Of a stretch of DNA of 64,000 nt, positions 22,796 through 59,133 are shown piece by piece. The notes beneath the pieces are model-generated. The model was not told the origin of the DNA. It did no database searches and was given only the letters and a program-made list of their open reading frames with translations. The position numbers and the translations under genes were made by a program. Every line of letters starts with the position of its first letter. The stretch's first letter is position 1. Origin of the DNA: Acidobacteriota bacterium (lineage in GTDB: Bacteria; Acidobacteriota; Terriglobia; Versatilivoradales; Versatilivoraceae); contig JAKEER010000513.1 of NCBI GenBank assembly GCA_022616615.1, positions 59,300-123,299 on the forward strand, given 5' to 3'.

Positions 22796-22848
22796 TTTCC
22801 TATAGAGAAACTATTATCTTGACACGAATCTAACCTCAAATCTAGTAT
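22796..22848 (+). promoter_or_regulatory. Promoter with shared 15-bp operator (copy 1)
   Basis: TTTCCTATAGAGAAA 22796-22810, 8 nt, TTGACA 22819-22824, TAGTAT 22843-22848. Confidence 0.65.
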
Positions 22849-22914
22849 TAGATTTCTTTGGGAGAATTGCTTAATCAACAAACCTGCGATCTCTCGAGAA
22901 CGGTCGAGGTGTCT

Positions 22915-25900
22915 ATGCGACTTTACGGAACCTTTGTAGCAACGGCCACAATGCTGACGATGTTGCCCGTCGGGGCCTCGGCGCGCGATGATTTGACGGC
23001 CGCTGCACGAGAGTTTTTTGAGACACGGATCCGCCCGGTCTTGGTTGGAGAATGCGCTAGCTGCCACAGCGGAGAGCGGCCGCAGGGTGGCCTGCGGCTC
23101 GACTATCGTGGTGGCTGGGAACGAGGGGGCAAGTCAGGCACGCCGATCGAGCGTGGTAATGTGGACAAGAGCTTGCTCATCAGACTAATTCGCCATGAAT
23201 CCCCAGGAATGCCCATGCCGCTCGGCGGCAAGAAACTGGCGCCGGAAGTGATCGCGGCATTTGAGGAATGGGTGCGAATGGGCGCGCCTGATCCGCGAGA
23301 TACCGCCGCTACAGCGCCCCCCCCGGAGCAGTCATGGGATTCGCTTTTAGGTGACCGGCGGCGGTGGTGGAGCCTGCAACCAGTGGTGCGCCCGGCGGTT
23401 CCTTCGGTCAAGCAATTCAGGTGGTCGAAGCGTGCGGTCGACCGGTTCATTCTGGCAAAGCTGGAAGCGAGAGGTCTTGTCCCCGCACCACGAACCGAAC
23501 GCGCCACGCTGCTGCGGCGTCTAAATTACGTTCTAACCGGTCTGCCACCCACCCCCGAAGAAGTGGACGCCTTCGTTCGCGACCGCAATCCAGCAGCGTA
23601 CTTGATGGCGGTGGACCGGCTGTTGGCTTCGCCCCACTTTGGCGAGCGCTGGGCGCGGCACTGGATGGACGTTATCGGCTACAGCGACACGTATGGCGTG
23701 GAGTGGGATATTCCGGTAAAGGGAGCCTGGCGTTTCCGCGACTACTTGATTCGTGCGTTTAACGCCGATGTCCCGTTCGATCAATTGGTGCGCGAACAGA
23801 TCGCTGGTGATCTCATCCCTCAGCCACGAATCGACCCCAAAGAACAGATCAACGAGTCGCTGATTGGACCGATGTTCTTTCAGATGGGCGAAAAATCCCA
23901 CAACGACAGCCTGCGTTTCAACGGAATCCACCAGCAGATGTTGAGCAGCAAAATCGACGTGTTTTCCAAGGCGTTTCAGGGAACGACCGTGGCGTGCTCG
24001 CGCTGCCATGACCACAAATTCGAGGCTATCTCGCAGCGGGACTACTATGCCTTGGCGGGCATTCTTATGAGTTCCCGTTGGGTTACCAATACGCTCGACA
24101 CACCACAGCGCAACCGGGAGGTGCTCGAACAACTTGTGGCCATCAAACCGAAGCTTCACCCGGTGCTGGCGGACTGGTGGTTTGAAGAAGCAGATCAGAT
24201 TCTCCGGTATTTGCTGGCCGGGCAGGCTTGCATCAACAGTGACACCGACGCTCAAAAACTTTCCGAAGGTCTGGACTCTGATCGTTTGGCCGCAACAAAA
24301 AAGGCGCTGACGGTCTCCGTCGGCGTGAAACCGCCGATAGAGGATGCCCTCTACCCGTGGTTTGAACTGCAGCAGGCGGCCAGCAACAGTAAGTCTCTGG
24401 AGAGTGTGTGGCGGGAACTTGCGGAAATGTATCTGCGAACCCGCGAGGAGCGGATCGCCGCCAACGCTCGTGACTACACCCTGATCGCCGACTTCCGCCA
24501 CGGGATTCCCGCCGGGTGGTCGGTGGACGGTGTTGGTCTGCGCCAAGGGCCCGTGTCTAACGGCGAACTGGCAGTGTCTATAGACGGTCCCTATGCGATA
24601 ACAAGACTGCTCTCTGCCGGTCTTGCCACAGATGGGATGTCGCCGCGGCTCAACGGCGCAGTCCGCACGCCGTACCTGAACCCGTCCGGCCCCCAGCGGG
24701 TGAGTCTGGAGTTGAGTGGGGGGGATTTCGCCACGCATCGCCAAGTTGTCGATAATGCCTTCCTCACCGAGCGGCAAGTGTATCTAACGAACAAGAGCTT
24801 TTATTGGGTGGAGCTGTCGATCTGGGAGGATAAACAAACCCGCGACGGGCTGACGCCGGACGAGAAAGCCGAAATGCGCATCTTCGCTGAAGTAGCAACG
24901 AAGGCGTCGAACCCTAACTTTCCACCACGCGTGGGTTTGGGCGGGAAACTCACTAAAGAACAGGAGCATGACGCGCGCAGTTGGTTCAGCATCGGTCGGG
25001 TGATGCTTCACGACAAAGCCGGTCCCCCGGCTGACGAACTTGCCCGTTTTGCGAACTTGTTCTCCGGCGGCACCCCCACCGACCTTTCCGCTGCTGCGAA
25101 CCGCTACGGCGACTGGCTCGCCACGGCGCTTACCGACTGGAGGCAAGGCCGCGCAGACGAAGAAGATGTCCGGCTCATCAATTGGATGCTCGATAGCGGC
25201 TTACTGCCTAATAAGATGGACGCGCGGCCCGCGGTGCGCGACTTGGTCGCCTCATACCGTAATGCTGAGAAGCAGTTGGCCGAACCGGAGACGGTGAATG
25301 GGATGGCGGACCTGGACGAGGGTCGGGACTACCGCCTAAACATTCGGGGTGTTTATGAAGATCTCGGTGAACGTGTGCCGCGCGGCTATCTGGAAGTTCT
25401 CACGGGTCGCCGTGATGGCCTTGGCACCAATGGAAGCGGCAGACTGCAATTGGCTGACTTGATCGCCAGTCCGAAAAACCCGCTAACAGCTCGAGTCTTT
25501 GTCAACCGCGTGTGGCATTGGGTATTCGGAACCGGCATTGTCGCCACACCCGATGATTTCGGACACTTAGGCGAACCGCCGTCACATCCGGAAATGCTCG
25601 ATTATCTCGCGGACTCGTTTGTGAAGAGAGGCTGGTCATTGAAGAAACTGGTTCGCATGCTCGTGACTAGCGAAACTTTCCAGCAGTCGGGGCAAATCAG
25701 CGTAGGAGGCCGAGCGGCTGACCCTCTCAATCGCCTTCTTCATCACTACCCACTTCGGCGTCTGGACGCAGAATCAGTGCAAGACTACCTGCTATGGGTT
25801 TCCACTCGGCTAAACCCTCGCCTGTTCGGCGATCCGATCAATCCTGCACGAACGAAGGAAGATCCGACTAAACGTTTGTTTTCCGGGCCGGTTGACGCTG

Positions 25901-26331
25901 ACGGTCGCCGGTCTATCTATGTGAAAATGACCATCATGGACCCACCCAAGTTTTTGGCAACATTCAACCAGCCAAGCCCGAAGATTCTCACCGGCAGGCG
26001 TGATGTCACCAACGTGCCTGCACAAGCGTTGGCTCTGTTGAATGACCCATTCGTTACCGCACAGGCCGAATACTGGGCGCGCCAACTTATCGTCTCACCG
26101 CACTCAACACCTGAAGAGCGGTTGACGGCCATGTTCCGGCGTGCGTTCGGGCGTGCTCCGAGCACATGGGAATTGACGCGCTGGACCAAGGCGGTCCGGG
26201 ACATGGCATTGGCTTATCGGGATAGTCCTGGATTGGCTCCCAAATCGGACGAAATCATGCAGTCACTACCGGTCTGGAAGAGTACGGCGCACGCAATCTT
26301 CAACACCAAGGAGTTCCTCTATGTCCGCTAA
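22915..26331 (+). CDS. Planctomycete-type cytochrome c / DUF1549 (PSCyt2) / DUF1553 (PSD1) protein
   Basis: FFETRIRPVL..CASCH, WSLQP, LLRRL..LTGLPPT, FGERWARHWMD, CSRCHDHKFE, NPLTARVFVNRVW, PSHPEMLDYLA, QALALLN. RBS GAGG before ATG 22915. Confidence 0.93.
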   Translation: MRLYGTFVATATMLTMLPVGASARDDLTAAAREFFETRIRPVLVGECASCHSGERPQGGLRLDYRGGWERGGKSGTPIERGNVDKSLLIRLIRHESPGMPMPLGGKKLAPEVIAAFEEWVRMGAPDPRDTAATAPPPEQSWDSLLGDRRRWWSLQPVVRPAVPSVKQFRWSKRAVDRFILAKLEARGLVPAPRTERATLLRRLNYVLTGLPPTPEEVDAFVRDRNPAAYLMAVDRLLASPHFGERWARHWMDVIGYSDTYGVEWDIPVKGAWRFRDYLIRAFNADVPFDQLVREQIAGDLIPQPRIDPKEQINESLIGPMFFQMGEKSHNDSLRFNGIHQQMLSSKIDVFSKAFQGTTVACSRCHDHKFEAISQRDYYALAGILMSSRWVTNTLDTPQRNREVLEQLVAIKPKLHPVLADWWFEEADQILRYLLAGQACINSDTDAQKLSEGLDSDRLAATKKALTVSVGVKPPIEDALYPWFELQQAASNSKSLESVWRELAEMYLRTREERIAANARDYTLIADFRHGIPAGWSVDGVGLRQGPVSNGELAVSIDGPYAITRLLSAGLATDGMSPRLNGAVRTPYLNPSGPQRVSLELSGGDFATHRQVVDNAFLTERQVYLTNKSFYWVELSIWEDKQTRDGLTPDEKAEMRIFAEVATKASNPNFPPRVGLGGKLTKEQEHDARSWFSIGRVMLHDKAGPPADELARFANLFSGGTPTDLSAAANRYGDWLATALTDWRQGRADEEDVRLINWMLDSGLLPNKMDARPAVRDLVASYRNAEKQLAEPETVNGMADLDEGRDYRLNIRGVYEDLGERVPRGYLEVLTGRRDGLGTNGSGRLQLADLIASPKNPLTARVFVNRVWHWVFGTGIVATPDDFGHLGEPPSHPEMLDYLADSFVKRGWSLKKLVRMLVTSETFQQSGQISVGGRAADPLNRLLHHYPLRRLDAESVQDYLLWVSTRLNPRLFGDPINPARTKEDPTKRLFSGPVDADGRRSIYVKMTIMDPPKFLATFNQPSPKILTGRRDVTNVPAQALALLNDPFVTAQAEYWARQLIVSPHSTPEERLTAMFRRAFGRAPSTWELTRWTKAVRDMALAYRDSPGLAPKSDEIMQSLPVWKSTAHAIFNTKEFLYVR

Positions 26332-27754
26332 AATTCCGTTTGCTTCTTTTCCGATGACGCGCCGCGAGTGGCTGCGCCAATCATCCAACGGATTTGGCAT
26401 GCTTGCTCTTTCCGCCCTGATGGCTGAACAGGCGCGCGGGGCGCACTCGGCCACCAAGGCGATTAGGCCGCACTTTCCTCCAAAAGCCAAGAGCGTGATC
26501 ATGTGCTTTATGGACGGGGGCCCCAGCCACGTGGACACTTTCGATCCGAAGCCACTCCTGAAAAAGCGTCAGGGCGAGAAGATCGGCCAGTCAGCGGTTT
26601 CGACCAAATCGCAATCTACACCGGACCGCGTCTGGCTGGGCAGCCCCTGGGAATTTCGTCAGCGCGGGCAAAGCGGTCTTTGGGTCAGCGATCTGCTACC
26701 GCACATTGCGAATGTCGCCGACGAGTTATGTGTGGTTCGATCTATTGTGGGACTACAGCCGGTGCACGCCCAGCAAAATTTGCTCTTTCATACCGGGCGG
26801 CCAACGGGTAGTGCACCTACTTTCGGTTCGTGGGTGTCCTATGGTCTCGGCAATCCGTCGGACAATCTTCCGAACTATATGCTTCTCTTCAGCGAATGGG
26901 TCCCCAACGGAGGCCTTGAGAACTTCTCAAGTGCGTTCTTGCCCGCAACCCACGCACCCACCGTTCTACGCACACAAGGTGTACCGATGGACAACATTGT
27001 TCCCTCTGATCCAGCCACGGTGCAGGAACAGAAGCTCGCTCTGCTCAGTGATCAGGATGCAGCCTTTGCACGGGCGACCGGCGACGATGCCATCGAGTCG
27101 GCCATTAAGAACTATGAAACAGCGTTTCGCCTTCAAGCGATGATTCCGGAACTGGCCGACGTGAGCGGAGAATCCGAGGCGACTCGCCGAATGTACGGCC
27201 TCGATGCGGACAATGATGCCAAGAAGGGTTATGGCCTCCAGTGCCTCCGTGCGCGGCGTCTAGTGGAGGCTGGCGTGCGATTTGTCGAGATCACCTGTCC
27301 GCTGACCCACCCGAACAACGGGCCGTGGGACCAGCATCAAAACCTGAAAAAGTATCATGAAGAGAACGCGATGATCATGGATCAGGGCGTCGCGGCTCTC
27401 ATCAAGGACCTGAAACAAAGGGGACTCCTGGACTCAACCGTCGTCTTGTGGGCAGGAGAAATGGGACGTACCCCCCACACCCCTAAAATTACCGAGACGG
27501 TTGGGCGCGACCACCACGTGAACGGCTACTCGATCTTCGTCGCGGGCGGCGGATTCAAGCGAGGCGTCACGTACGGGAGTACTGATGAGTTCGGAAACAG
27601 CGTGGCGGAACAGCCGGCTACAATTCACGACATTCATGCAACCATCCTGCACCAACTTGGCCTCGATCACCAACGGCTGACCTTTCGGTTCGGAGGCCGC
27701 GACATGAGCCTCACCGACGTTCACGGCCACCTGATCCACGAACTCCTGGCATAA
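26321..27754 (+). CDS. DUF1501 family protein
   Basis: TRREWL Tat-like signal, AKSVIMCFMDGGPSHVDTFDPKP, ARRLVEAGVRFVE, GEMGRTP, GRDHH. Confidence 0.93.
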   Translation: MSAKIPFASFPMTRREWLRQSSNGFGMLALSALMAEQARGAHSATKAIRPHFPPKAKSVIMCFMDGGPSHVDTFDPKPLLKKRQGEKIGQSAVSTKSQSTPDRVWLGSPWEFRQRGQSGLWVSDLLPHIANVADELCVVRSIVGLQPVHAQQNLLFHTGRPTGSAPTFGSWVSYGLGNPSDNLPNYMLLFSEWVPNGGLENFSSAFLPATHAPTVLRTQGVPMDNIVPSDPATVQEQKLALLSDQDAAFARATGDDAIESAIKNYETAFRLQAMIPELADVSGESEATRRMYGLDADNDAKKGYGLQCLRARRLVEAGVRFVEITCPLTHPNNGPWDQHQNLKKYHEENAMIMDQGVAALIKDLKQRGLLDSTVVLWAGEMGRTPHTPKITETVGRDHHVNGYSIFVAGGGFKRGVTYGSTDEFGNSVAEQPATIHDIHATILHQLGLDHQRLTFRFGGRDMSLTDVHGHLIHELLA

Positions 27755-27864
27755 GCCAAGTCTGTTGCTGGAGCCGTTTTACGATTGAGGAAACTGGGCC
27801 ACGCATCTATAAGTTATAAGTCAGCTTCTTTCTCTCAAGAGTTTGGAATCGTCGAGGCTACGGA

Positions 27865-28902
27865 ATGATCGTGCATTCTGAATTCGCAGAAGGAATCCTT
27901 TGGGTTCTGCTGAGTGCCTTCGGAAACGGTTCGTTTGGGCTGTTCCTTAAGTACAACCGCGATTGGAAGTGGGAACACATGTGGTTGATTTACTCTCTAT
28001 TAGCCATGGTCGTGATCCCATGGACGATGGGCTTCGCGACAGTCCCAGGTTTGCCTCAAATCCTCGGTTCAGTGCGCGATGCCGACCTCGCCCTTGTGTT
28101 TCTTTACGGCTTGGGATGGGGAGTGGGCGCAGTGCTCTATGGATTGGCGTTGAATATGGTGGGGCTAGCTCTCACTTATGCCATCGCGGGAGGACTCGCG
28201 ACGGCCTGCGGCTCTCTGTTGCCATTGGTCTTACTGCATCCTCTGGAATTGCTGACGATGCGGGGACTTATGATTATAGGTGGAGTCTCTCTCATTGTAA
28301 TCGGAGTGGGAATATCCTCCTGGGCAGCCCACCTGAAAGCGACAGCTTTCACACGAAAGTCTGGCGATGTCTTGGCGCTTTCGGAGCGGAGAAGTCTATT
28401 TTCCGGCATTCTCGTGGCCATCGCTGCAGGACTATTGACTTCCATGTTGAACCTTAGCTTCGCGTATGGAGCTCCTTTAGGAAAAATCGCGGTGAACCAC
28501 GGAACCCATCCGTTGTTTGCAGCAAACCTTATATGGATTGTGGCTTTACCCGCTGGCTTTCTTGCAAACGCTGCATATTGTGCTCATTTGATTCGCAAGG
28601 GACAGTCGTGGAGCCTCTTTTCCAGTCACTGGACCCCTTTTGGCCTCGCTCTTGGCATGGCGCTGCTGTGGTCAGCCGGATACATTTTCTATGGTTTTGC
28701 AGGCTCGAAACTTGGTGAACTAGCGGCTGTGGTGGGGTGGCCATTGATGTCGTCCCTGACGATCTTGACCGCGAACTTCTGGGGTGCAGTTTCCGGTGAA
28801 TGGGCTAGGAGCGGGACAAAACCCCGCCTCGTGATGAGTGGTGCTGTATTCTTGCTCTGTGTGGGAATGTTTATCGTTGGGGGGGCTGAATCTGGCAGGT
28901 GA
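27865..28902 (+). CDS. RhaT-family (L-rhamnose/H+ symporter-like, DMT superfamily) sugar transporter
   Basis: About 10 TM helices, NGSF..P-like WKWEHMW, GLGWGVG, NFWGAVSGEW. Confidence 0.85.
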   Translation: MIVHSEFAEGILWVLLSAFGNGSFGLFLKYNRDWKWEHMWLIYSLLAMVVIPWTMGFATVPGLPQILGSVRDADLALVFLYGLGWGVGAVLYGLALNMVGLALTYAIAGGLATACGSLLPLVLLHPLELLTMRGLMIIGGVSLIVIGVGISSWAAHLKATAFTRKSGDVLALSERRSLFSGILVAIAAGLLTSMLNLSFAYGAPLGKIAVNHGTHPLFAANLIWIVALPAGFLANAAYCAHLIRKGQSWSLFSSHWTPFGLALGMALLWSAGYIFYGFAGSKLGELAAVVGWPLMSSLTILTANFWGAVSGEWARSGTKPRLVMSGAVFLLCVGMFIVGGAESGR

Positions 28903-29104
28903 TTGTTTACACGCGTCTCGACCGCGTTTCGGGCCAGAAAGCATGAAGTGAACTGGCGTTGCCCAACTGTTTGGCAAGGCGAGTTCTGTCTTGCCGATGG
29001 CACGATGCTGGTGGACTTGTTTCGCACCATGTATGAGGTGCTCCGCCAGAGGAGCAGAACCAATGCCCTTAGTCGCGCGCCAGGTTCTATCTGAGGAGTT
29101 CTTT

Positions 29105-30076
29105 ATGAGATTGAATCGACCTGTTTCAGCTCTCTTCGGTCTGCTTGCCGTGTTGTGTGGTGTCCATACTGGGGGCACACCATCAGCAAAAGCTGTTCTG
29201 CCCCATCGCCTATTGCTCGTTGCCAGCGAGGGATTATATATAATGGAGCGAGACGGTTCCTGCTCCTGGTCCTACAACGTGCCTCGCATCAATGGGCGTA
29301 GCAACTTGGAGTTTGACGACCTTGTGTACGACGGGCAGGCGCTTTCGGACGGCCACTTCCTGTATGCTGCGCACCGATATGTCCGTGAAGTGGATCACGA
29401 TGGGAAGACTTTGTGGGAGTACCGGGTGACCGGCGCGCATGAGGTGAAATCTTTTGCGTTGGGACCGGATGGCACCGTGGCTGTGCCGCACAGTGGCGAA
29501 CAAGCCATCCTCGAACTGGAACGGGGCACCGGGCGTGAACTCAAACGCATTCCACTGCCGGCTGAAGGAAGCTATCATACTCGCTACAACCTGCTGCGTC
29601 TCACGCCGGAGGGTACATATCTCCTGGCGCTGGTCGCGGAAAAGCGTTGTGTGGAAGTGGACCGTTCCGGTAAGGTGCTGCGGTCATTCGCCGTTCCTGG
29701 TAGACCTACTGTGGCCCGAAGACTACCAGACGGCAGTACCGTGGTCAGCGGCGAGTTTGGCATCCGGCGTTTTGGAGCCGACGGAGCAAAGCAGTGGAGC
29801 TTTGACCAGGCTGATACGGCGGGGCAGTTCTTGCTGATGTGGCCGTACGGCACAATACCATTGGAAGGCGGACGGCTCATGGTGGTGAATTCCGATTGGC
29901 ACTACAAGGAAGCAGGCTCGAACCGCGTACCACTGTTCATCGTAGGCGAAGACAAGCGGGTCGAATGGAGTCTGGACGTCAAGGCGTTCGAGCCGTGGAA
30001 AAAGAGCGAGACGGAGCCCCGTTCTGGGCTAAAGGAACACCGCCTCATGGTTGTCCAGTTGCTCACCGACAAATGA
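29105..30076 (+). CDS. Exported beta-propeller protein of unknown function
   Basis: RBS GAGGAG before ATG 29105, signal peptide, blade repeats EVDHDGKTLWEY / EVDRSGKVLRSF / ARRLPDGSTVV. Confidence 0.75.
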   Translation: MRLNRPVSALFGLLAVLCGVHTGGTPSAKAVLPHRLLLVASEGLYIMERDGSCSWSYNVPRINGRSNLEFDDLVYDGQALSDGHFLYAAHRYVREVDHDGKTLWEYRVTGAHEVKSFALGPDGTVAVPHSGEQAILELERGTGRELKRIPLPAEGSYHTRYNLLRLTPEGTYLLALVAEKRCVEVDRSGKVLRSFAVPGRPTVARRLPDGSTVVSGEFGIRRFGADGAKQWSFDQADTAGQFLLMWPYGTIPLEGGRLMVVNSDWHYKEAGSNRVPLFIVGEDKRVEWSLDVKAFEPWKKSETEPRSGLKEHRLMVVQLLTDK

Positions 30077-31125: not shown

Positions 31126-31338
31126 TGGTGTGTCACCTCAGCAATGATCCACGGCGGACAAAATGGCCACTGCACGGCAATTTGTTGTGAAGTTTCAAGT
31201 GCACCGTGTGTTTCTTAGCAGTAAAAAGAATGTATTGCAAGTAACATTTAAATCGTCTAGTATCACACCTGAATCTGTTAACGAAAGGCAGGCTTGCTAG
31301 TCTTCGGGGTTTGTTTCCTCGCGAAAGCAACAGAACTC

Positions 31339-32526: not shown

Positions 32527-32545
32527 CTCGCAATCGGAGATCTCA

Positions 32546-45804: not shown

Positions 45805-47130
45805 TTAGAGCACTTCCGCCACGGGCTCGCCCGTGTGGTCTTCTACCGAGTTAGCGATTTTAACCGGTCGGCCGATGGGGTGCATGTACTCTTTGTGCCA
45901 GTCGATCCCAAAGGCTTTGTAAACCGTGGCGAACAAGTCGCCAATGGTCACTCGTCGCCCATCGACCAGGTAGCCCCCCTTTTCATCGCTGGCTCCAACC
46001 ACTTGGCCTCCGCGAATCCCGCCTCCTCCGAGAGCGATCGACCAGCAGGGAGACCAGTGATCGCGCCCACCGTCCGGGTTGTGATAAGGAGTGCGGCCGA
46101 ATTCTCCCATGACCAGCACGAGGGTGGACTTCAGAAGGCCTCGTTGCTCTAGATCCTCGAGCAGTGCACATAGAGCCTGGTCCAGCAGCGGTACCAGCCG
46201 ATCCCTGTGCAGTCGGTCATTATTGGCGTGCGTGTCCCAGGCGTTGCCTCCAAAACCGGATGCCGTCACAAAGCGGCTGCCCGCTTCGACGAGGCGGCGG
46301 GCCAGCAAAACACTCTGCCCGAATCCATGCCGTCCGTAGGTGTCTTTGGTCTTGTCCGATTCTTTGGAAAGATCGAACGCTTCGCGGACCACCGGAGACA
46401 AAATCATGTTTTGTGCCTGCTGAACGAAGGGATCTCCTCCTCCATGCTCGGCGATTTTGGATTTCGCGCGGTACTGTTGGTCAACGAAATTCAAGAGAGA
46501 GCGGCGGTCTTCCAGTCGCTCCATGGTCATCCCCTTGGGCAAACTCAGGTCCGGAAGCTTGAAATCCTTAGCGCTTGGATCGGGCACGACCAAGGGGTCG
46601 TATTCAGGTCCTAGAAAGGCTGCCTTGCCAAACTTCCGGTCGTTGGTCAACACATAAGGTGGTACGGCATTGCGCGGACCCATCTCCTTGGCAATGACGG
46701 ATGCGAAGCTGGGAAACTCCATGGCCGGATTGGGTCGATGGCCGGTGAAAGCGTAGTTAATGGCCTGAGGATGCATATTTTCCTCTGTGAACATCGTCCG
46801 GATGATCGACAGCTTGTCCATTTTCTTGGACACCCGGGGTAGCAACTCCGAAACCTGAATGCCGGCAACATTAGTGGAAATGGGCCTGAACGGACTGTTG
46901 GGCTTCGGATCCCAAGTATCCATCTGACTGGGACCACCCTCCAGCCAGAGCAGGATGCAGGCCTGCGCTTTAGCCTTCGACGCGGTAGCCCCCGGCACAG
47001 CCGCCATTAGATCACTGGCACGCAGGTACTGGTCCAAGCTGATTCCCAATAGACTCAAGGAGCCAACGCGCAGAAAATCACGTCGTCGCAAGCCTTCCTC
47101 GCTACAGGTCAGACATCCAACTTTCTTCAT
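45805..47130 (-). CDS. DUF1501 family protein
   Basis: RRRDFLRVG, ACILLWLEGGPSQMDTWDPKP, LLARRLVEAGSRFV, GEFGRTP, GRDHW. Confidence 0.93.
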   Translation of the reverse strand: MKKVGCLTCSEEGLRRRDFLRVGSLSLLGISLDQYLRASDLMAAVPGATASKAKAQACILLWLEGGPSQMDTWDPKPNSPFRPISTNVAGIQVSELLPRVSKKMDKLSIIRTMFTEENMHPQAINYAFTGHRPNPAMEFPSFASVIAKEMGPRNAVPPYVLTNDRKFGKAAFLGPEYDPLVVPDPSAKDFKLPDLSLPKGMTMERLEDRRSLLNFVDQQYRAKSKIAEHGGGDPFVQQAQNMILSPVVREAFDLSKESDKTKDTYGRHGFGQSVLLARRLVEAGSRFVTASGFGGNAWDTHANNDRLHRDRLVPLLDQALCALLEDLEQRGLLKSTLVLVMGEFGRTPYHNPDGGRDHWSPCWSIALGGGGIRGGQVVGASDEKGGYLVDGRRVTIGDLFATVYKAFGIDWHKEYMHPIGRPVKIANSVEDHTGEPVAEVL

Positions 47131-47164
47131 GATTCCATCCTCCTGATCAGAGGGGTCTACGTTT

Positions 47165-49825: not shown

Positions 49826-49868
49826 GGGCCTTTGACTCCCGATCAAACGAACAGCTTAGTCTGGCGTT

Positions 49869-51860: not shown

Positions 51861-51928
51861 AGGCGCGCATCCCAAATATTCGCCCACACCCCGGAGAATC
51901 AATCACTTAATGGAAGGCCCGAGAGGTT

Positions 51929-52028
51929 GCTAGTCAGAGCCAAATGATTTCCTTTTGGTCTCGTGTGCATGCCAAACCTTACTTCGATGAAATGATTCTT
52001 GTCAAGAAAAGATATTCCTTATAAGAGA
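51929..52028 (-). promoter_or_regulatory. Leftward promoter with shared operator (copy 2) and conserved leader
   Basis: Reverse complement reads TCTCTTATAAGGAAT, 8 nt, TTGACA, 18 nt, TAAGGT. Inverted near-copy of 52392-52492. Confidence 0.7.
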
Positions 52029-52391: not shown

Positions 52392-52492
52392 TTACTTATA
52401 GTGAACATTTTTTCTTGACAAGAATCATTTTTCGAAATAGGTTTTTGCCATCCACACGGGACCAAAAGCAAATCACCTGATTCTCCGACTAG
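52392..52492 (+). promoter_or_regulatory. Rightward promoter with shared operator (copy 3) and conserved leader
   Basis: TTACTTATAGTGAAC 52392-52406, 8 nt, TTGACA 52415-52420, 17 nt, TAGGTT 52438-52443. Confidence 0.7.
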
Positions 52493-52577
52493 GATTCAAC
52501 ACTGTACGAATTGTGATGAACTTAGAAGCTGCTGAATGGTCTCCTCTGAAGCATCTTGAAAACTCAAGGAGGGAACT

Positions 52578-55500
52578 GTGAAGAAAACCAAAATCGTATG
52601 GTTGATTGTGGTCGCTTTAGTCTCTTTCTGTTTGAAACAACGTGTCGAGGCACAAGTGATCACTGGAACAATCGTCGGAACTGTTTTCGACCCTTCTTCA
52701 GCTGCGCTTCCGGGGGTTGAAGTGACCGTGACCAGTACTGAAACTGGCCTGTCCCGCACTGTACTGACGAATAGTACCGGAGAATACGTTGCTCCATCGT
52801 TGCCTCCTGGAACCTACAATATTGCGGCGGTCCTCAAGGGATTCAAGAAGGGAATTGTCCAGGATGCTAGATTGCGAGTTGACCAGACACTCCGGAAAGA
52901 CATGGGTTTTGGAACTCGGGGAAGTGTCGCAGGAGGTCACGGTCCAGGCGGAAGTGCTGGCACTGGGAACCGAAAATCCTGCAATTGGGGAAGTCATATC
53001 GGATGAGCAAATTGTTGAATTGCCCTTGAATGGGCGCAGCTTCGTTCAGCTAGCAAATCTCTCAGCGGGAATTACCTCTCCAGGAAACGCCCAAGGCAAA
53101 ACCAACGTGAGCGTGTTTGGCAGGTCTACCTCCTCCATTAGCATCTCTGGACAGAGAGAATTCTCGACTGACTATAGGTTCGACGGCATTCCGGCCAAGG
53201 ATCGCATCTACGGGCCAGTCGGAATGCAGTTCGATGTGGACGCTATCTCCGAATTCAAAGTCCAGCGGGGGTACGCGTCCTCGGATATTGGCCTTTCGGG
53301 GCGGATCGATGTGATCACTAAATCAGGAACGAACGACTTTCACGGATCAGCCTGGGAATTCTTGCGGAACGAGAAGCTCGATGCTCGCAACACGTTTGCA
53401 AATGCAAAGCTTCCTTTGCGTCAGAACCAGTTTGGCGCGGCCGCTGGTGGTCCTCTTATTAAGAACAAGTTGTTCTATTTCGGGGATTATGAAGGATTGA
53501 GAATCCGCAGCTCTTCCCCTAGCCTGGGAAGAATCCCGACTGTCGAGAACCTGCAAGGCAACTTTGCTGGGGGCCCTCCAGTTGTAGATCCAGCCGCACG
53601 TCAACCATTTCCTGGGAACATCATACCATCCAATCGCATCTCAACATTCGCCGCGCAGTATAACAAGTTCATTCCACAGCCAAACGCCAGCGGAGCTATC
53701 AACCGCGTGATTTCAACTCGAACGATTCAAGACGAAGACAAATACAACGGTCGAGTCGACTACACGATATCCAGCAGCGACACCGTTTTTGGCAGATACA
53801 CTCACGTCAATTCACGGGTGACTAGAGAGGGCTTTATTCCCCTTACAGGAATTGACTCGCCGTTATCAGCACGAAACGCAGTCGCAGGCTGGACCCATTT
53901 TTTCGCGCCAAACATGCTGAACAGCTTCAGATTTGGCCTGAATCGAGTCGATAACAATCCTTTCATTCCGGAGGGGGCTAAAGAGAATCCGTCATTCAAG
54001 CAAATGTTTGGATTGCAAAACCTTAACGAACTGCCCGAATGCAATGGGCTACCTGGAGTGAACATGGCAGGGTATAACGGTCTAGGCGCCGGTACCCTTT
54101 GTCTTTCTGAGCATACAAATGATCTTCATTTCATCGATGACTTCTCCTACACCAGAGGGCGGCATCGCTTAAGTACTGGTTTTGAAATCATTCGTGTCCG
54201 CATGCGCCAAATCATTGGCCTCGGGAACGTAGGAAGCTTTGCCTTCTCGGGGCAGTACACGGGAAACCCAGTAGCTGACTATCTTTTGGGAAATCCCAAT
54301 TCAGCCTCCGGCCAAAACTTCACCAAGATCCCCTACCGTAAAGGAATTTGGCCAAGCTTCTACATCAACGATAACGTTCGTCTGACTTCAAAGTTGAATC
54401 TGACCGTCGGTCTTCGCTACGAATACATTCAACCCTTGGCCGACAAAGAGCGTTCTCTCGTCTCATTTGATCCCACAGTTCCTGGTGGCGGATACCTGTT
54501 CGAGGAGGGTTCAGGATTGGGTGATATTGGACGGCTGGTGAATCCGGGCCTTCTCCCCCCAGACAAAAACAACTGGGCTCCTCGATTTGGTCTCGCCTAC
54601 TCGCCCGGCAAAGACGTGGCGCTTCGTGCGAGCTATGGAATTTTCTATCAGGAGCCGATTGGGAATAACCTAAACGCTCAGCAAAATGGACCACCTTATC
54701 GAGCCCAAGTTACCCTTCTCGGTGAGCTGAATAATCCGACGATTAACTTAGGCAAGGACTTGATCTTTCCACTTTTGCGGCCTCCATATCGAGGACCAAG
54801 CGTGGGCGTGTTCGGCCTCGATTTTACCTACCGGACTCCTTATCTCCAGAGTTGGACACTAAGCATTCAGAAGACCCTTCCTGCAGGTCTGCTTGCCGAA
54901 GGGGCGTATGTGGGCTCAAAAGGAACAAAGCTAGACAAATGGGTAGATCTTAATATCGCGGCGACGCCCCCGCCTCCTGGATTTACGGGAACACTGCAGA
55001 GTCGTCGCGCTTTTCCGGACTTTGGGACCGTCCTCTTTATCGCCGGCAGTGCCAAGTCCAACTACCACGGCCTCCAACTCACGCTCAAGAAAAGTTGGGG
55101 TGGGGGACTATCGTTTCTTACAAATTACACATTCAGTAAGTCCTTGGACACTGACTCGTGGGATGGAGTAAGAAGTTATATCCTAAGCGATCCAGGCAAA
55201 GCTCGCAGTTCCTTCGATCAGCGACAACGTTTCACGCTGAGCTGGGTCTATCAACTGCCAGTGCGTACCCTTGATAACAAGGTGGCCCGAACCTTGATTG
55301 CGGGGTGGCAGATAACGGGCATCACTCTCTTGCAGTCGGGATTTCCTTTCGCGCCCGTGACAGCCGTAGACTATTCAAACAGGCTTTTGACCTACGCACC
55401 AAGAATCCCAATTCGAACCTGTAATGGGAATTTGCCCGCGGATGAGCGTAAGCCCGAAAGATGGATTGAAACAAGCTGCTTTTCTTTACCCGCGCAAAAC

Positions 55501-55746
55501 ACGCTCGGTAACTCAGGCCTGAATATTCTTGAGACTGACGGAGTCATTAATCAGGACTTTGGATTGATGAAGAATTTTCAGTTAGCAGAACGGCTAAGAA
55601 TGCAGTTTCGTTTCGAAGCTTTTAATCTGCTCAACCATGCAAATTATCGGGCACCCATCAACTCTCTGGAGAATCCCTCATTCGGTAGGGTATTGGGTGC
55701 CCTTCCTTCCCGAAATCTGCAGTTTGGTCTCAAGTTCAATTGGTGA
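52578..55746 (+). pseudogene. Oar-like TonB-dependent receptor with a +1 frameshift at about 52905 (real lesion or sequencing indel)
   Basis: ORF 52578 (signal peptide, ITGTIVGTVFDP) joins ORF 52789 if one G is removed from ATGGGTTTTG, giving RKDMVLELGEV, colinear with the paralog at 59249. Confidence 0.85.
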
Positions 55747-56033: not shown

Positions 56034-56594
56034 TCAGGGCTGAGAAAATACGACGATGTACCGGGCCTGTTGAGTCTTTTGTATTCGAGGGCCATGGGGG
56101 ATCCGGGCGTCAAAATAGAGCGAGTCCCCCTCCCTAACAGAGTAAGTCTTGTCACCAACCACATACTCCATCTCTCCTTCCAACATGTAGACGAATTGCT
56201 CGCCACGATGGTCCTGAAGGGTAAACTTAAAGGTCTTACCGTCGAGAGCGACAATCATCGGTTGCATGTCTCGTCGTCTTCGTCCTGGAGCGAGAAGTTC
56301 GTATTGGTAGTTCATGGCGCTGCGACGGCCTGTGGTGTTCTGACGTTTGTTCCTCGGAAAGAAAACCGTTCCCGCGTCTTCTTCGGAACCGAAGAATTCG
56401 CTAATCGGTACATCGAACGCCTCGGCAAGTTTGGCAAGCGTCGCTATCGATGGGGACACAAGAGCGTTTTCAATTTTCGACAACATTCCTCGGCTAAATC
56501 CAGCCAACTCACTCACTTGATGCAAAGTCATACTTCGCGATGCCCGCAAGGCCTTGATCCGTCGGGCAAGCTTGTGTTCCGTAACTTCAGTCAT
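56034..56594 (-). CDS. XRE-family HTH plus cupin transcriptional regulator
   Basis: IKALR...TL..VSELAGFSRGMLSKIEN..SPSIATL HTH; cupin HRGEQFVYMLEG...GDSLYFDARIPH. Confidence 0.93.
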   Translation of the reverse strand: MTEVTEHKLARRIKALRASRSMTLHQVSELAGFSRGMLSKIENALVSPSIATLAKLAEAFDVPISEFFGSEEDAGTVFFPRNKRQNTTGRRSAMNYQYELLAPGRRRRDMQPMIVALDGKTFKFTLQDHRGEQFVYMLEGEMEYVVGDKTYSVREGDSLYFDARIPHGPRIQKTQQARYIVVFSQP

Positions 56595-56969
56595 CGACAG
56601 CTCTCCTTCCTTCTAACTGAATTAAGTTGAATAATAGTTAACCTGGATCATGTTCGTCAAATTCTACATTCAACAAAGCCGCCACACAAAAATTACAACC
56701 GGTTCGTCAGTTCGATAGAGTGGTCTGACGAACTGGCAGGGTGCAAGGCTCAGATCAGTAATCGTCTAGTTAGTTTAGTTAGTTTCTGTCGCGAAACGGG
56801 TGAAAACGGCTCTGTGAGGCTGGCGGGAGCCTCGGCAGGTTGCGATTATCACAGTCGGCCCGCCTGAAAGCCAGAGCCAGCCGGGCGAGAGGTGTGAGAG
56901 CAGGTCGCATGGCGTTGCCAACAGACACGTCGGCACAGTGCGGAGCAACGACGGTTTCAAGACTGGAGA

Positions 56970-58391
56970 TTATGCGGCGGCGGGACGTGGCGGTTTGCGT
57001 TTGGCACGCAACAGTGCCGCAATGCGCAGGAGATTGTTGGCCAGGACAGCAGCGCCAACGAAAAGCTCGAAGCGTTGTCGACCTTCAGCCAGGCAGCGCT
57101 TCATGCCGCGTCCCCGGAACAACACCGAGATACGGCCCTCGATGCCGGCGCGGAAGCGCTGGCCTTTTTTGAAGGCGGGGCTTTTCTCGATCGTTTCGCG
57201 TTGGGGAGTTTTCTTTCCCCCTCGCTGGGGGATGGAGATGACGGCGACGCCAGCCTGCTGACAGGCGGTGAGATTGTTGGGGCTGTAAAACCCGCGGTCG
57301 GCACCATAGAGTTCTGGGGCCTGGCCAAAGGTTTGCTGATGGCTCTGGAGCGAGGGTTCGACGTGGTGTTCGTCGGCCGGGTTTCCATCCAGTACGCGGT
57401 ACTGAGTGATCAAGCCGCGGGCGCTTTCGGCCAGAAACACCTTGTGGCCGAACTCGATGGGCTTTTGAGTCTTGCCCCGTTTGATCAGGTCGGTGTGGCT
57501 TTCAAAGATGGAGTAGATTTTCTGATCGCTGGGGACTTGTTCGCCTTCCAGCACGCGGCGGCGGGTCTGATCCAGGACGCGGTCGCCCAGTTGACAGTAA
57601 TGCTCGATCTCTTTCCGGAGCGCCTGGATGGCGAGGTCGTCGGTGAGAGACTTGCCACGGGCGTTTTGAGTTTGGGTGAGGACGCGGCGGGCATTGCTGA
57701 CGACGCGTTGGCTGACACGCAGGAGGCGGCGGTATTGGGGGACCAGCTGGGATTGCCGCTGCTGGGCGCTCATCCGTTGGATCTGCTGCATGCGGCGGCG
57801 GGCCGAGCGGCAGTGATTGGTAAAGCCCCGAACGCCCCGGGGCAGCAGTGTATCGAGACGCCCGACCAGGCGGCTGAGGACGCGCACCGTGTCCCAGAGC
57901 AAGGTGCTGTCGGTGGGGTGATGGATGTCGGCTTCCACCACGGTGGTGTCGGTGCGCAGTTTCTTGCCGTCCTCCAGCCCGAGAGCGACCGCCGCCTCGA
58001 CCACTAGCTGATTGACGACTTCCAGAGTGGCTGGGGTGAGCCGGACGAAGGCGCGGTGGAAGGCATCGTGTTTGGGGACGGGGCGGCTGAAGAACTGGGT
58101 GAACTGCCGCAAGGTGTAGCCATCGGCGATGCGTTCACGCAGTTCGCGATAGTCCCAGTTCTTGACACGCATCAGGGTCAGGGAGCGCAGCACTTGCGCG
58201 GCGTCGAGTCCGTTGCGGCCGGTGGCGGGGTTTTTCAGCCCGCGCTGGAGGTCCCGGCGCACGTGCTCGACCAGGGTCTGGTGTTGATCGATGAAGTCGG
58301 AGATCTGCTGGAGGAGGGGGTCGAGGGTGATGTTCTGGGCGCGGAACTCGAGATCGGCGAAGCTCCATTGGTGGGTAGTGGCTCGGGCCAT
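56970..58391 (-). CDS. DDE transposase (ISNCY family-like)
   Basis: RTDTTVVEADIHHPTDS, KIYSIFESHT..IKRGK..EFGHK, GADRGF, FRAGIEGRIS. Confidence 0.92.
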   Translation of the reverse strand: MARATTHQWSFADLEFRAQNITLDPLLQQISDFIDQHQTLVEHVRRDLQRGLKNPATGRNGLDAAQVLRSLTLMRVKNWDYRELRERIADGYTLRQFTQFFSRPVPKHDAFHRAFVRLTPATLEVVNQLVVEAAVALGLEDGKKLRTDTTVVEADIHHPTDSTLLWDTVRVLSRLVGRLDTLLPRGVRGFTNHCRSARRRMQQIQRMSAQQRQSQLVPQYRRLLRVSQRVVSNARRVLTQTQNARGKSLTDDLAIQALRKEIEHYCQLGDRVLDQTRRRVLEGEQVPSDQKIYSIFESHTDLIKRGKTQKPIEFGHKVFLAESARGLITQYRVLDGNPADEHHVEPSLQSHQQTFGQAPELYGADRGFYSPNNLTACQQAGVAVISIPQRGGKKTPQRETIEKSPAFKKGQRFRAGIEGRISVLFRGRGMKRCLAEGRQRFELFVGAAVLANNLLRIAALLRAKRKPPRPAAA

Positions 58392-58490
58392 GGAAGAATC
58401 TCCGGAGGCGTTGTTTTGAGTATTCCGAGAGCATTATAGAGCTATCGGAAACAGTTGACAACCGGAAACTGAGGCCCTACGCTGAGGCGC

Positions 58491-58883
58491 ATGAACCGAC
58501 GACCGTCATCGCTGGAGGCCCGGATTGAAACCGTCAAACAGGCGATCATCCGCCTGGGAGACCTGCGCCCGGGCAAACTCTCGCAGCAATACAATGTCTG
58601 TGGCAAAGCGGACTGTCGTTGCAAGGCCGATCCACCGCAAAAACATGGCCCGTACTACCAGCTCAGCTTCACCCGCAGCGGCAAGAGCTCGACTCAATTT
58701 GTGCGGCAAGAAGACCTAGCCGTGGTGCGGCAGCAGTTAAAAAATTACCAGCGCTTGCGGGAATTGATCGACCGCTGGATCACGTTGGGGATGGAACTGT
58801 CGCGTCTGAAACTGCCGTCAGCCCGACTGGGTGGCGTTTCCCGGAAACCTCCGCGTGCCCAACGCGTCGCGAAGCGTCGTTAG
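58491..58883 (+). CDS. DUF6788-like zinc-ribbon IS accessory protein
   Basis: RPGKLSQQYNVCGKADCRC...KHGPYYQLS, located inside the IS. Confidence 0.8.
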   Translation: MNRRPSSLEARIETVKQAIIRLGDLRPGKLSQQYNVCGKADCRCKADPPQKHGPYYQLSFTRSGKSSTQFVRQEDLAVVRQQLKNYQRLRELIDRWITLGMELSRLKLPSARLGGVSRKPPRAQRVAKRR

Positions 58884-59081
58884 AAGGCGTCGATTTCAGA
58901 GACCTACAAAACTCTAAGAACCAGTCCCAGCAAGGGCTTCCGAGTTTCGCGACAGAAACTAGTTAAATGAAGAGATGAGAATTGATCGACTAGTGAAGGT
59001 GAGGGCGACTTGGAGCATGAACACGTACGGTCAGAATCTCTTATTTCCGCGCCGGCTAGAATTTTAGCGACCGGCAGAATA

Positions 59082-59133
59082 TTTCTTATAATGAAAAATT
59101 TTTCTTGACAAGCATCAAACCAAAAACTATTGT
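59082..59133 (+). promoter_or_regulatory. Promoter with shared operator (copy 4)
   Basis: TTTCTTATAATGAAA 59082-59096, 8 nt, TTGACA 59105-59110, 17 nt, TATTGT 59128-59133. Confidence 0.7.

What the first reader, a model, noticed from the sequence alone, without database searches (positions are those of the whole stretch)
22796..59133. Hidden regulon: one 15-bp operator exactly 8 nt upstream of TTGACA at four promoters, coupling DUF1549/DUF1553/DUF1501 operons to TonB receptors
Seen: TTTCCTATAGAGAAA (22796), TCTCTTATAAGGAAT (minus strand, 52014-52028), TTACTTATAGTGAAC (52392) and TTTCTTATAATGAAA (59082). The consensus is approximately TTTCYTATARNGAAA, a pseudo-palindrome, and each copy is followed after 8 nt by TTGACA in a TCTTGACA.G.ATC context and a plausible -10. 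The targets are both cytochrome/DUF1553-DUF1501 operons and both right-hand TonB receptors. Without the IS, the XRE-cupin gene is divergent from copy 4 at about 300 bp. Inference: an XRE-cupin-controlled import plus periplasmic processing system that gives the functionally unknown DUF1501/DUF1553 modules a ligand-responsive context. A weaker match at 31211-31225 precedes the E2 operon.
Basis: partly seen in the sequence, partly recalled or inferred. Interest (0 to 1): 0.78.

Follow-up and report, generated by a model that had tools for sequence, protein, structure and literature searches.

The report
Acidobacterial XRE-cupin operator regulon
A specific 35-bp control sequence sits on about ten promoters of nutrient-uptake and unknown-function periplasmic genes in an uncultured soil/sediment acidobacterium, and it most likely is the binding site of a neighbouring small-molecule-sensing repressor.

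Summary
All four 15-mers lie exactly 8 nt before TTGACA (4 matches; shuffles give a mean of 0.01).

A whole-genome scan shows the motif is not a generic UP element. It marks only 8-11 promoters on three contigs, with a clean score gap.

The element is larger than reported. It is a 15-bp site A (TTTCYTATARNGAAA), then 4 nt, then a 15-bp palindromic site B (TTTCTTGACAAGAAT) that contains the -35. The T-run and C before TTGACA are generic promoter context in this genome. Site A and the GAA after TTGACA are not.

Targets are four TonB receptors, three PSCyt/PSD1-DUF1501 pairs, both RhaT genes and catabolic operons.

The XRE-cupin link is supported but not shown. The only close orthologues found (86% and 79% identity) each lie divergent to the same composite site in front of a TonB receptor. 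IS-free alleles restore that layout here.

Against this, the weaker E2-operon site belongs to a second site class. That class also occurs in a same-genus genome where no XRE-cupin was found.

Most likely mechanism: ligand-released repression by promoter occlusion. This is a new member of a known kind, of moderate interest.

The parts
22796..22829 (+). Composite site s1. Site A is 22796-22810, the spacer 22811-22814 and site B 22815-22829 (TATCTTGACACGAAT). The -35 TTGACA is at 22819-22824 and the -10-like TAGTAT at 22843-22848.
22858..30076 (+). Unit driven by s1: PSCyt1/PSCyt2/PSD1 (22858-26331, CxxCH), DUF1501 (26321-27754, Tat-like TRREWL), RhaT-family symporter (27865-28902) and a Mala_s_1-like beta-propeller (28991-30076).
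31211..31263 (+). Class II composite site s11. A' is TTTCTTAGCAGTAAA (31211-31225) and B' is ATGTATTGCAAGTAAC (31230-31245). The -35 TTGCAA is at 31235-31240 and TAGTAT at 31258-31263. It precedes the E2/MR_MLE/MaoC/CoA-transferase/E1 operon (31294 onward) and is divergent from the HpcH/CitE-like gene (30292-31125, -). Whether it belongs to the XRE-cupin regulon is uncertain.
51995..52028 (-). Composite site s2, read on the minus strand: TCTCTTATAAGGAAT atct TTTCTTGACAAGAAT. The -35 is at 52005-52000 and the -10-like TAAGGT at 51981-51976.
45805..51902 (-). Unit driven by s2: an unknown 677-aa protein (49869-51902), Big_2-PSCyt2-PSD1 (47165-49846) and DUF1501 (45805-47130, Tat-like RRRDFL).
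52392..52425 (+). Composite site s3: TTACTTATAGTGAAC attt TTTCTTGACAAGAAT. The -35 is at 52415-52420 and the -10-like TAGGTT at 52438-52443. Together with s2 it forms an inverted duplication of about 95 nt that includes the early leader (51936-52025 against 52395-52484).
52789..55746 (+). TonB-dependent receptor (OMP_b-brl_4) driven by s3.
56034..56594 (-). XRE-cupin transcription factor (HTH_3 + Cupin_2, 186 aa), the candidate regulator. Its own promoter-like site is at 56660-56631 (TTGACG-18-TATTAT) and carries no motif.
56766..58958 (.). IS insertion of 2193 bp between the XRE-cupin gene and s4. It carries a DDE transposase (56970-58391, -) and a DUF6788 ORF (58491-58883, +). Its inverted repeats are at 56774-56797 and 58944-58967. 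The 7-bp target duplication is CTAGTTA.
59082..59115 (+). Composite site s4: TTTCTTATAATGAAA aatt TTTCTTGACAAGCAT. The -35 is at 59105-59110 and the -10 TATTGT at 59128-59133.
59201..63998 (+). Unit driven by s4: a TonB-dependent receptor (59201-62422, CarboxypepD_reg + OMP_b-brl_4) and the next ORF (62625 to the window end, with weak Cu2_monoox_C and cytochrome c matches).

Best explanation
The four sites are part of a real regulon in an uncultured Acidobacteriota genome.

Each site is a composite operator-promoter of about 35 bp:
- a 15-bp pseudo-palindrome, site A (TTTCYTATARNGAAA)
- 4 nt of spacer
- a 15-bp palindrome, site B (TTTCTTGACAAGAAT), whose centre is the sigma-70-type -35 hexamer

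The centres of A and B lie 19 bp apart.

The most likely mechanism has three steps. The neighbouring XRE-cupin protein binds A and B as dimers, probably cooperatively. It thereby occludes the -35 and keeps the units off. A small molecule bound by the cupin domain then releases it.

The released units form one route:
- outer-membrane TonB receptors
- Tat/Sec-exported PSCyt/PSD1-DUF1501 pairs in the periplasm
- RhaT-type inner-membrane symporters
- cytoplasmic catabolic enzymes

**Shown here:** the motif, its architecture, its genome-wide specificity, its targets and its conserved position next to XRE-cupin orthologues.

**Inferred:** binding by this protein, repression rather than activation, the ligand and co-expression.
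For: **Specificity**
- A whole-genome match count against the 35-mer consensus, over 9.58 Mb and both strands, gives 8 sites at 29 or more of 35. No site scores 28. Three score 27, and the background tail starts at 24-26.
- Among 3957 TTGACA sites, site A at the 8-nt offset has 0 mismatches at 2 sites and 2 mismatches at 5. The next values are 4 or more, and the mode is 10-11.

**Site B**
- GAA at +7..+9 after TTGACA occurs in 6 of 10 regulon sites. It occurs in 4 of 50 generic promoter-like sites (Fisher p = 7e-4).
- B is a perfect 13-bp palindrome in s2 and s3.

**Not inherited by duplication**
- Apart from the s2/s3 pair, the promoter modules share only the block.
- The three DUF1501 proteins are 29-41% identical to each other. 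Their closer paralogues, on contigs C80 and C319, lack the motif.
- About 44 DUF1501 loci, about 41 PSCyt loci and about 181 receptor-like loci exist in the genome. The motif marks 3, 3 and 4 of them, plus 2 of 2 RhaT genes.

**One site A serves two divergent promoters** on contig C86.

**Link to the transcription factor**
- Of 41 relatives, only G000 (8 hits) and G007 (one hit at 1 mismatch) carry clear composite sites. Three other genomes have one 3-mismatch hit each. The reversed-pattern control gives 13 hits in all.
- G007 holds the only genomic orthologue at 86% identity.
- The G007 site lies 210 bp divergent from that gene, before a TonB receptor.
- A metagenome contig with a 79% orthologue has GTTCTTGACAAGCAT, preceded by half of site A. 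It lies about 415 bp divergent from the gene, again before a receptor.
- IS-free contigs in two runs from two studies put the gene about 294 bp from s4.
- A generalised B palindrome lies within 700 nt of the gene in 5 of 7 acidobacterial homologue loci. It does so in 4 of 100 control loci. This pattern was defined post hoc.

**Family behaviour.** In Pseudomonas, every XRE-cupin factor studied binds an intergenic region next to its own gene. All bind palindromes as dimers and all are inhibitors, with 1-12 sites each (PMC7901475, passages read).

**Export signals.** Tat-like RR motifs are present in all three DUF1501 proteins, and CxxCH is present in PSCyt_s1. I read these by eye.
Against: - **No binding or expression data.** No RNA run holds the locus.
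- **The G001 exception.** G001 is a same-genus genome, 97% complete, in 620 contigs.
  - It carries the class II composite before a Mala_s_1-like gene. It also carries a B'-B' arrangement before the orthologous PSCyt/DUF1501 operon.
  - No XRE-cupin was found there with the protein query at E<=1e-10 or with a profile at E<=1e-3.
  - No regulator gene was seen on that contig.
- **Half-site spacing varies.** The half-site spacing differs between A, B and B'. That is awkward for one rigid dimer.
- **Few independent instances.** Only two close orthologues exist outside G000, and they are kin.
- **Weak -10 hexamers.** The -10 hexamers of s2 and s3 match TATAAT at only 3 of 6 positions and fail the tool's threshold. 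That could instead point to activation.
- **Bin quality.** The genome is a metagenome bin with 8% estimated contamination and 918 contigs. It is therefore assumed, not shown, that C781, C86 and C11 share one cell.
Confidence: 0.6

Rival explanations
1. The composite sites are a real regulon motif, but a different, unlinked transcription factor binds them. That factor would be present in G000, G007 and G001. The XRE-cupin/receptor pair would then be just one of its targets.
For: - Class II sites (A'+B') and a B'-B' promoter occur in G001, where no XRE-cupin was found.
- The hybrid site on C11 joins a class I site A to a B'-like element. That suggests one protein reads both classes.
Against: - Class I composites were found only in genomes or contigs that carry a close XRE-cupin orthologue. 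In 3 of 3 such cases they lie directly beside that gene.
- No other regulator gene was seen among the ORFs I scanned against Pfam in the window (ORFs of 100 aa or more, not every one scanned), or on contigs C86, C11 and G001:C30.
- G001 is fragmented, so the gene could be unassembled or recently lost.
Confidence: 0.2
2. The XRE-cupin binds site A only, centred near -52. It activates promoters with weak -10 hexamers. The conserved bases around TTGACA would then be promoter elements, not a second operator.
For: - The -10 hexamers are poor at s2 and s3.
- The left half of B (TTTTTC) is generic promoter context.
- Site A lies upstream of the -35, where class I activators sit. This last point is general knowledge.
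Against: - All XRE-cupin factors characterised so far are inhibitors (PMC7901475).
- The right half of B (GAA at +7..+9) is regulon-specific and mirrors the right half of A.
- In G010, G035 and G365 the palindrome next to the homologous gene overlaps TTGACA itself.
Confidence: 0.12
3. The shared block reflects descent: a promoter cassette copied along with duplicated genes or as a small mobile element. Selection for a binding site would not be needed.
For: - s2 and s3 are an inverted duplication of about 95 nt that includes the leader.
- Receptors s3, s4 and s6 are 58-62% identical paralogues.
Against: - Outside s2/s3, no similarity extends beyond the block.
- The block precedes unrelated gene families: PSCyt, RhaT, an FAD oxidoreductase, MlrC and TonB receptors.
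- It precedes non-orthologous receptors in G007 and L150, which are 25-31% identical to those here.
Confidence: 0.04
4. The motif is only a generic AT-rich UP element or promoter context of this lineage.
For: The T-run and C before TTGACA, and an A at -9, are common at other promoter-like sites. C at -1 occurs in 62%, and T at -6..-2 in 52-58%, of 48 sites.
Against: - Site A is absent from the other TTGACA sites.
- The composite is absent from 36 of 39 other relatives. The three remaining hits are at control level.
Confidence: 0.02

Closest known systems
XRE-cupin local repressors of Pseudomonas (ErfA, PsdR, PauR, PA0535 and others; PMC7901475)
   Same: - HTH_3 plus Cupin_2 architecture.
- The gene lies next to a target promoter.
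- Palindromic sites.
- Targets are uptake and catabolic genes.
- A regulon of about 10 sites matches the PauR-sized end of the reported range (1-12 sites).
   Different: - A different phylum (Acidobacteriota).
- The targets are TonB receptors and PSCyt/PSD1-DUF1501 modules.
- The operator is a fixed tandem of two sites fused to the -35.
- Nothing here has been tested at the bench.
E. coli PuuR (NCBIfam NF007408)
   Same: It is the best-scoring named family. The match runs end to end (residues 9-180) and the domain order is the same.
   Different: - The score is 66.3 bits against a cut-off of 211, so this protein is not a PuuR equivalent.
- The target genes are unrelated to putrescine use, apart from one class III aminotransferase.
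- I could not read the PuuR operator paper, which is not held.
Phage-type Cro/CI operators with repressor dimers on adjacent sites that overlap a promoter (general knowledge, recalled)
   Same: Same HTH class. Two neighbouring pseudo-palindromic sites, one of which overlaps the -35.
   Different: The protein carries a cupin ligand domain and lacks the phage-repressor type of oligomerisation domain. It controls a chromosomal metabolic regulon.
PSCyt/PSD1-DUF1501 modules of Planctomycetes and Verrucomicrobia (PMC3542564, PMC5615132)
   Same: - The same gene pair, with a Tat-type signal on DUF1501.
- A cytochrome c motif on the partner.
- Big_2 or carbohydrate-binding add-ons.
- Function unknown, with a carbohydrate role suspected.
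   Different: Here three of about 44 pairs share one operator with TonB receptors and sugar symporters. The passages I read in those two papers do not report such a regulatory context.

Membership tests
XRE-cupin transcription factor family | N-terminal Cro/C1-type HTH (HTH_3) | tested here: met
   PF01381, E = 1.2e-13, residues 13-67
XRE-cupin transcription factor family | C-terminal cupin sensor domain | tested here: met
   PF07883, E = 7.1e-16, residues 116-183. The closest solved chain is 1y9q, E = 2.6e-11, over residues 6-170.
XRE-cupin transcription factor family | Binds a palindromic site in an intergenic region next to its own gene | tested here: inconclusive
   A palindromic composite site lies next to the gene in G000 (IS-free allele), G007 and L150. 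Binding itself cannot be tested with these tools.
XRE-cupin transcription factor family | Acts as an inhibitor that is released by a metabolite | not testable with these tools
   Site B overlaps the -35, which fits occlusion. No expression or ligand data exist.
PuuR equivalog (NCBIfam NF007408) | Score at or above the curated cut-off | tested here: not met
   66.3 bits against a cut-off of 211
Sigma-70-type promoter | -35 TTGACA and a -10 TAnnnT at 16-18 nt | tested here: inconclusive
   All four sites have TTGACA and a TAnnnT at 17-18 nt. Of the three sites inside the scanned stretch, only s4 passes the tool's 9-of-12 rule. No transcription start data exist.
Generic UP element / lineage promoter context | Found at most TTGACA promoters of the genome | tested here: not met
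   Site A with 2 or fewer mismatches occurs at 7 of 3957 TTGACA sites. None of the 48 generic promoter-like sites has fewer than 5 mismatches. Only the T-run and C next to the -35 are generic.
Mobile promoter cassette / MITE | Extended homology and many copies | tested here: not met
   blastn-short of eleven 200-nt modules against the genome finds only the s2/s3 pair.

The most novel reading that the evidence does not exclude
A single ligand-sensing XRE-cupin repressor may run a polysaccharide-utilisation-like system in Acidobacteriota.

In this reading, TonB receptors import a glycan-derived oligosaccharide, perhaps rich in 6-deoxy sugars or sugar acids. Tat-exported DUF1501 enzymes and their PSCyt/PSD1 cytochrome partners process it oxidatively in the periplasm. 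RhaT symporters then pass the product to cytoplasmic dehydratase, aldolase and CoA-transferase routes.

This would be the first regulatory and substrate handle on the PSCyt/DUF1501 modules. These occur in dozens of copies per genome in Planctomycetes, Verrucomicrobia and Acidobacteriota.

A further possibility is that the regulon grew from one receptor promoter (as in G007) to about ten promoters here, by spread of a fused operator-promoter.
Probability: 0.25. Interest if true: 0.7.

Novelty: new member of a known kind. Interest (0 to 1): 0.5.

Why it matters
- **PSCyt/PSD1-DUF1501 modules.** These pairs are abundant and conserved, yet their function is unknown (PMC3542564 and PMC5615132, passages read). 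A shared operator ties three of them to TonB receptors, sugar symporters and catabolic operons. That gives a concrete starting point: one regulator to express, one set of 35-bp probes, and one ligand to look for.
- **Operator-promoter fusion.** The locus shows an operator fused to the -35. It also shows apparent regulon growth between two related genomes.
- **Literature.** Two full-text searches for DUF1501, DUF1553, DUF1549, PSCyt and PSD1 were run. In the two relevant papers they returned, whose passages I read, I saw no regulatory motif for these modules. A search combining Acidobacteria, cupin, TonB-dependent, regulon and XRE returned no paper. These searches cover only the held open-access library.

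Tried and rejected
- **Expression.** No RNA holder is listed for window 50500-60400. Transcription starts and co-expression could not be examined.
- **PuuR operator.** I recalled that E. coli PuuR has a published 15-bp operator.
  - The paper (Nemoto 2012) is not held.
  - A biosensor paper I checked does not give the operator.
  - A full-text search for the recalled string found no occurrence.
  - No comparison with PuuR's site is therefore made.
- **Rfam.** There are no matches at gathering score anywhere in the window, so no known leader RNA explains the long 5' regions.
- **IS copies.** None other is present in the assembly.
- **Distant XRE-cupin homologues.** 158 loci at 34-42% identity, mostly from other phyla, reach a best composite score of 26 or less. 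They served only as controls.
- **Marginal sites I do not count:**
  - C86:636(-), before a GH67N-like gene
  - C11:2721/2702(-), an A-like pair without a -35, in the MlrC leader
  - C808:99(-)
  - isolated A-like 15-mers with 1 mismatch on six other contigs, which are compatible with chance
- **Pathway assignment.** An L-fucose/L-rhamnose pathway is not secure. The MR_MLE enzyme scores below every equivalog cut-off. The HpcH-type gene looks RipC/CitE-like, at 215 bits against a cut-off of 375.

Full report
**1. Observation**

All four 15-mers are at the stated coordinates, and each is followed after exactly 8 nt by TTGACA. The composite pattern, with up to 3 mismatches, occurs 4 times in the window. 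In 100 dinucleotide-preserving shuffles the mean is 0.01 and the largest value is 1.

- a PSCyt1/PSCyt2/PSD1 gene plus DUF1501, followed by RhaT, after the site at 22796
- an unknown 677-aa protein, Big_2-PSCyt2-PSD1 and DUF1501 on the minus strand, after the site at 52028
- TonB-type receptors after the sites at 52392 and 59082

The third receptor in the window (7813-11442) has no site in the genome scan.

**2. Not a generic UP element**

The window lies on contig C781 of a 9.58-Mb metagenome bin. The bin has 918 contigs, 56% G+C and 8% estimated contamination.

I scored every position of the genome against the 35-nt consensus. Eight sites score 29-34 of 35, none scores 28, three score 27, and the background tail starts at 24-26.

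Among 3957 TTGACA sites, site A at the 8-nt offset has 0 mismatches twice and 2 mismatches five times. After that the lowest value is 4, and the mode is 10-11.

One part of the block is generic. I examined 48 other AT-rich TTGACA sites that have a TAnnnT at 16-18 nt. In these, C at -1 occurs in 62%, T at -6..-2 in 52-58%, and A at -9 in 62%.

**3. Anatomy**

The in-register alignment gives this consensus: TTTCtTATAg.GAAa aTtT TTTCTTGACAaGAAT C.

The second 15-mer, site B, is a palindrome centred on the A of TTGACA. It is a perfect 13-mer, TTCTTGACAAGAA, in s2 and s3. It shares TTTC-N7-GAA with site A. The two centres lie 19 bp apart.

The left half of B coincides with generic promoter context, but its right half does not. 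GAA at +7..+9 occurs in 6 of 10 regulon sites and in 4 of 50 generic promoter-like sites (Fisher p = 7e-4). That set of 10 includes one marginal site on C808.

On contig C86 a single site A is flanked by two divergent B/-35 elements. This fits a symmetric protein bound at A.

TAnnnT hexamers follow each TTGACA at 17-18 nt. Even so, only s4 passes the tool's promoter rule within 51500-59400.

**4. Regulon content**

Class I sites (A+B):

| Site | Location | Genes that follow |
|---|---|---|
| s1 | window 22796 | PSCyt, DUF1501, RhaT, beta-propeller |
| s2 | window 52028 (-) | unknown 677 aa, Big_2-PSCyt2-PSD1, DUF1501 |
| s3 | window 52392 | TonB receptor |
| s4 | window 59082 | TonB receptor and next gene |
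| s5 | C781:135699 | RhaT, glyoxalase, MlrC/M81, class III aminotransferase, alcohol dehydrogenase |
| s6 | C781:135379 (-) | TonB receptor, F5/8-type-C protein |
| s7 | C86:13446 (-) | PSCyt, DUF1501 |
| s8 | C86:13431 | FAD oxidoreductase and following genes |
| s9 | C86:2125 | TonB receptor |

A hybrid site, s10, lies at C11:3190(-) before an MlrC paralogue.

The motif marks only a subset of each gene family. tblastn finds about 44 DUF1501 loci, about 41 PSCyt loci, about 181 receptor-like loci and 2 RhaT loci. The motif marks 3, 3, 4 and 2 of these respectively.

The three DUF1501 proteins are only 29-41% identical to each other. Their closer paralogues elsewhere lack the site.

Apart from an inverted duplication of about 95 nt that joins s2 and s3, the modules share nothing beyond the block. 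The conservation therefore reflects constraint rather than copying.

All three DUF1501 proteins carry Tat-like RR motifs, and PSCyt_s1 has CxxCH. I read these by eye. This fits a periplasmic location.

**5. Which protein binds?**

The window encodes one XRE-cupin protein (HTH_3 + Cupin_2) at 56034-56594 on the minus strand. It is the only full-length copy in the genome.

An IS separates it from s4. It has inverted repeats and no other copy in the assembly. In two runs from two studies, contigs join 56765 to 58959. They skip 2193 bp and share 7 letters, the target duplication CTAGTTA.

Orthologues are rare:
- 7 of 401 genomes of the class match at E<=1e-35.
- G007 is the only genome with an orthologue above 60% identity and an intact frame (86%). 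One search names its record as an Acidobacteriota MAG.
- One metagenome contig, L150, carries a 79% orthologue.

A pattern scan of 41 relatives gives 8 hits in G000 and one 1-mismatch hit in G007. Four hits have 3 mismatches: one more in G007 and one each in three other genomes. The reversed-pattern control gives 13 hits.

The G007 site reads TTTCTTATAGCTAAA atat TTTCTTGACAAGAAT. It lies 210 bp divergent from the orthologue, before a TonB receptor. The catabolic genes beside the factor are syntenic with the window.

L150 has GTTCTTGACAAGCAT preceded by a half-conserved site A. It lies about 415 bp divergent from the orthologue, again before a receptor. Those two receptors are only 25-31% identical to the ones here.

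More distant acidobacterial homologues (43-47% identity) also have a palindrome over a TTGACA next to the gene:
- G010: TGTCTTGACAAGAAA
- G035: TTGCTTGACACGCAA
- G365: TGTATTGACAAGCAA

A generalised pattern is found at 5 of 7 such loci and at 4 of 100 control loci. I defined that pattern after seeing the loci.

The recognition-helix region is SRGMLSKIENA in the close orthologues and SKSFLSKVER-like in the distant ones.

This matches what is known of the family. The Pseudomonas XRE-cupin factors are inhibitors. All bind an intergenic region beside their own gene, use palindromes as dimers, and have 1-12 sites (PMC7901475, passages read).

**6. Counter-evidence: a second site class**

It reads TTTCTTAGCAGTAAA aaga ATGTATTGCAAGTAAC, then 12 nt, then TAGTAT. 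Its -35 is TTGCAA.

Near-identical composites occur in two other places:
- before the orthologous E2 operon of G007, 6.3 kb from its XRE-cupin gene
- in G001, before a Mala_s_1-like gene

G001 also has a B'-B' arrangement before the orthologue of the s1 operon. Its PSCyt is 59-61% identical and its DUF1501 73-74% identical.

G001 is a same-genus genome, 97% complete, in 620 contigs. It yielded no XRE-cupin with the protein query or with a profile. No regulator gene is visible on that contig.

Two features still tie the classes together. The distance from A to CAAG is 12 nt in both, and s10 is a hybrid of the two.

There are two possible readings. Either the XRE-cupin reads both classes and G001 has lost it or lacks it in the assembly, or class II has its own factor. 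I cannot decide between these, so I leave s11 as an uncertain member.

**7. Mechanism and ligand**

A site that covers the -35, a second site one and a half to two helical turns upstream, and the family precedent all favour repression by promoter occlusion with ligand-induced release (confidence 0.6). Activation from site A alone remains possible (0.12).

The ligand is unknown. The gene content suggests a glycan-derived sugar or sugar acid:
- RhaT-family symporters
- an acid-sugar dehydratase of the MR_MLE type
- GH95 genes nearby
- F5/8-type-C and Big_2 domains
- a RipC/CitE-like lyase together with a CoA-transferase and a MaoC hydratase

All the enzyme matches are below equivalog cut-offs.

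**8. Comparison and novelty**

The protein meets the architectural definition of an XRE-cupin factor. It is not a PuuR equivalent, scoring 66 bits against a cut-off of 211.

The system is a new member of a known kind. Three things are new:
- the phylum
- the fused operator-promoter
- the link between PSCyt/PSD1-DUF1501 modules and TonB receptors under one motif

The function of those modules was still open in the passages I read (PMC3542564 and PMC5615132). Full-text searches returned no paper on such a regulon. They cover only the held library. Supplements of the Pseudomonas paper (Fig. S1, binding motifs) were not seen.

**9. Caveats**

- All of the evidence is computational.
- The comparative support rests on two close relatives, which are kin.
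- Several patterns were defined after inspecting the data.
- The three contigs are assumed to come from one organism.

Noticed in passing
window 56766-58958: A 2193-bp IS (DDE transposase plus a DUF6788 ORF, 24-nt inverted repeats, 7-bp target duplication CTAGTTA) is polymorphic. Contigs in two runs from two studies carry the empty site. Depth inside the IS is several-fold higher than in its flanks, so other copies exist in those samples.
   Followed up: yes
L001:1853-2071 (C781:125152-125370): A remnant of a second XRE-cupin gene. It keeps the first ~51 codons (49% identity) and a 132-nt stretch that is 87% identical to the 5' region of the window's gene. It runs into an ORF with a weak Haem_bd match.
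   Followed up: partly
window 51936-52025 and 52395-52484: The two divergent promoters s2 and s3 are an inverted duplication of about 95 nt. It includes about 40 nt of transcribed leader at 80% identity. No Rfam family matches.
   Followed up: partly
L004:13412-13465 (C86): One site A lies between two divergent B/-35 elements. It serves a PSCyt/DUF1501 operon on one side and an FAD-oxidoreductase operon on the other.
   Followed up: partly
whole genome (G000): Promoter-like TTGACA sites in this genome share a context of A at -9, a T-run at -6..-2 and C at -1. This may be a lineage-typical extended -35 or proximal UP feature.
   Followed up: partly
window 12373-14644: A GH95-family gene is split over three overlapping ORFs (12373-12762, 12759-13439, 13220-14644). 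It is either frameshifted or affected by assembly errors. A second GH95-like gene follows at 14967-17492.
   Followed up: no
window 30292-35618: An HpcH/CitE-like lyase (best match RipC, 215 bits, below its cut-off of 375), a MaoC hydratase and a family III CoA-transferase lie together. They resemble an itaconate or C5-dicarboxylate CoA route. They sit beside 2-oxoacid dehydrogenase E1/E2 genes.
   Followed up: no
G001:C30 (L240, L254): A same-genus genome holds the s1-like and s2-like PSCyt/DUF1501 operons in tandem. They are under TTGCAAG-type promoters. No XRE-cupin gene was found in that genome.
   Followed up: partly
L002:2688-2721 (C11): Two A-like palindromes 4 nt apart, without a -35, lie about 470 nt downstream of site s10 and about 115 nt before the MlrC start codon. 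They may be an auxiliary operator.
   Followed up: no
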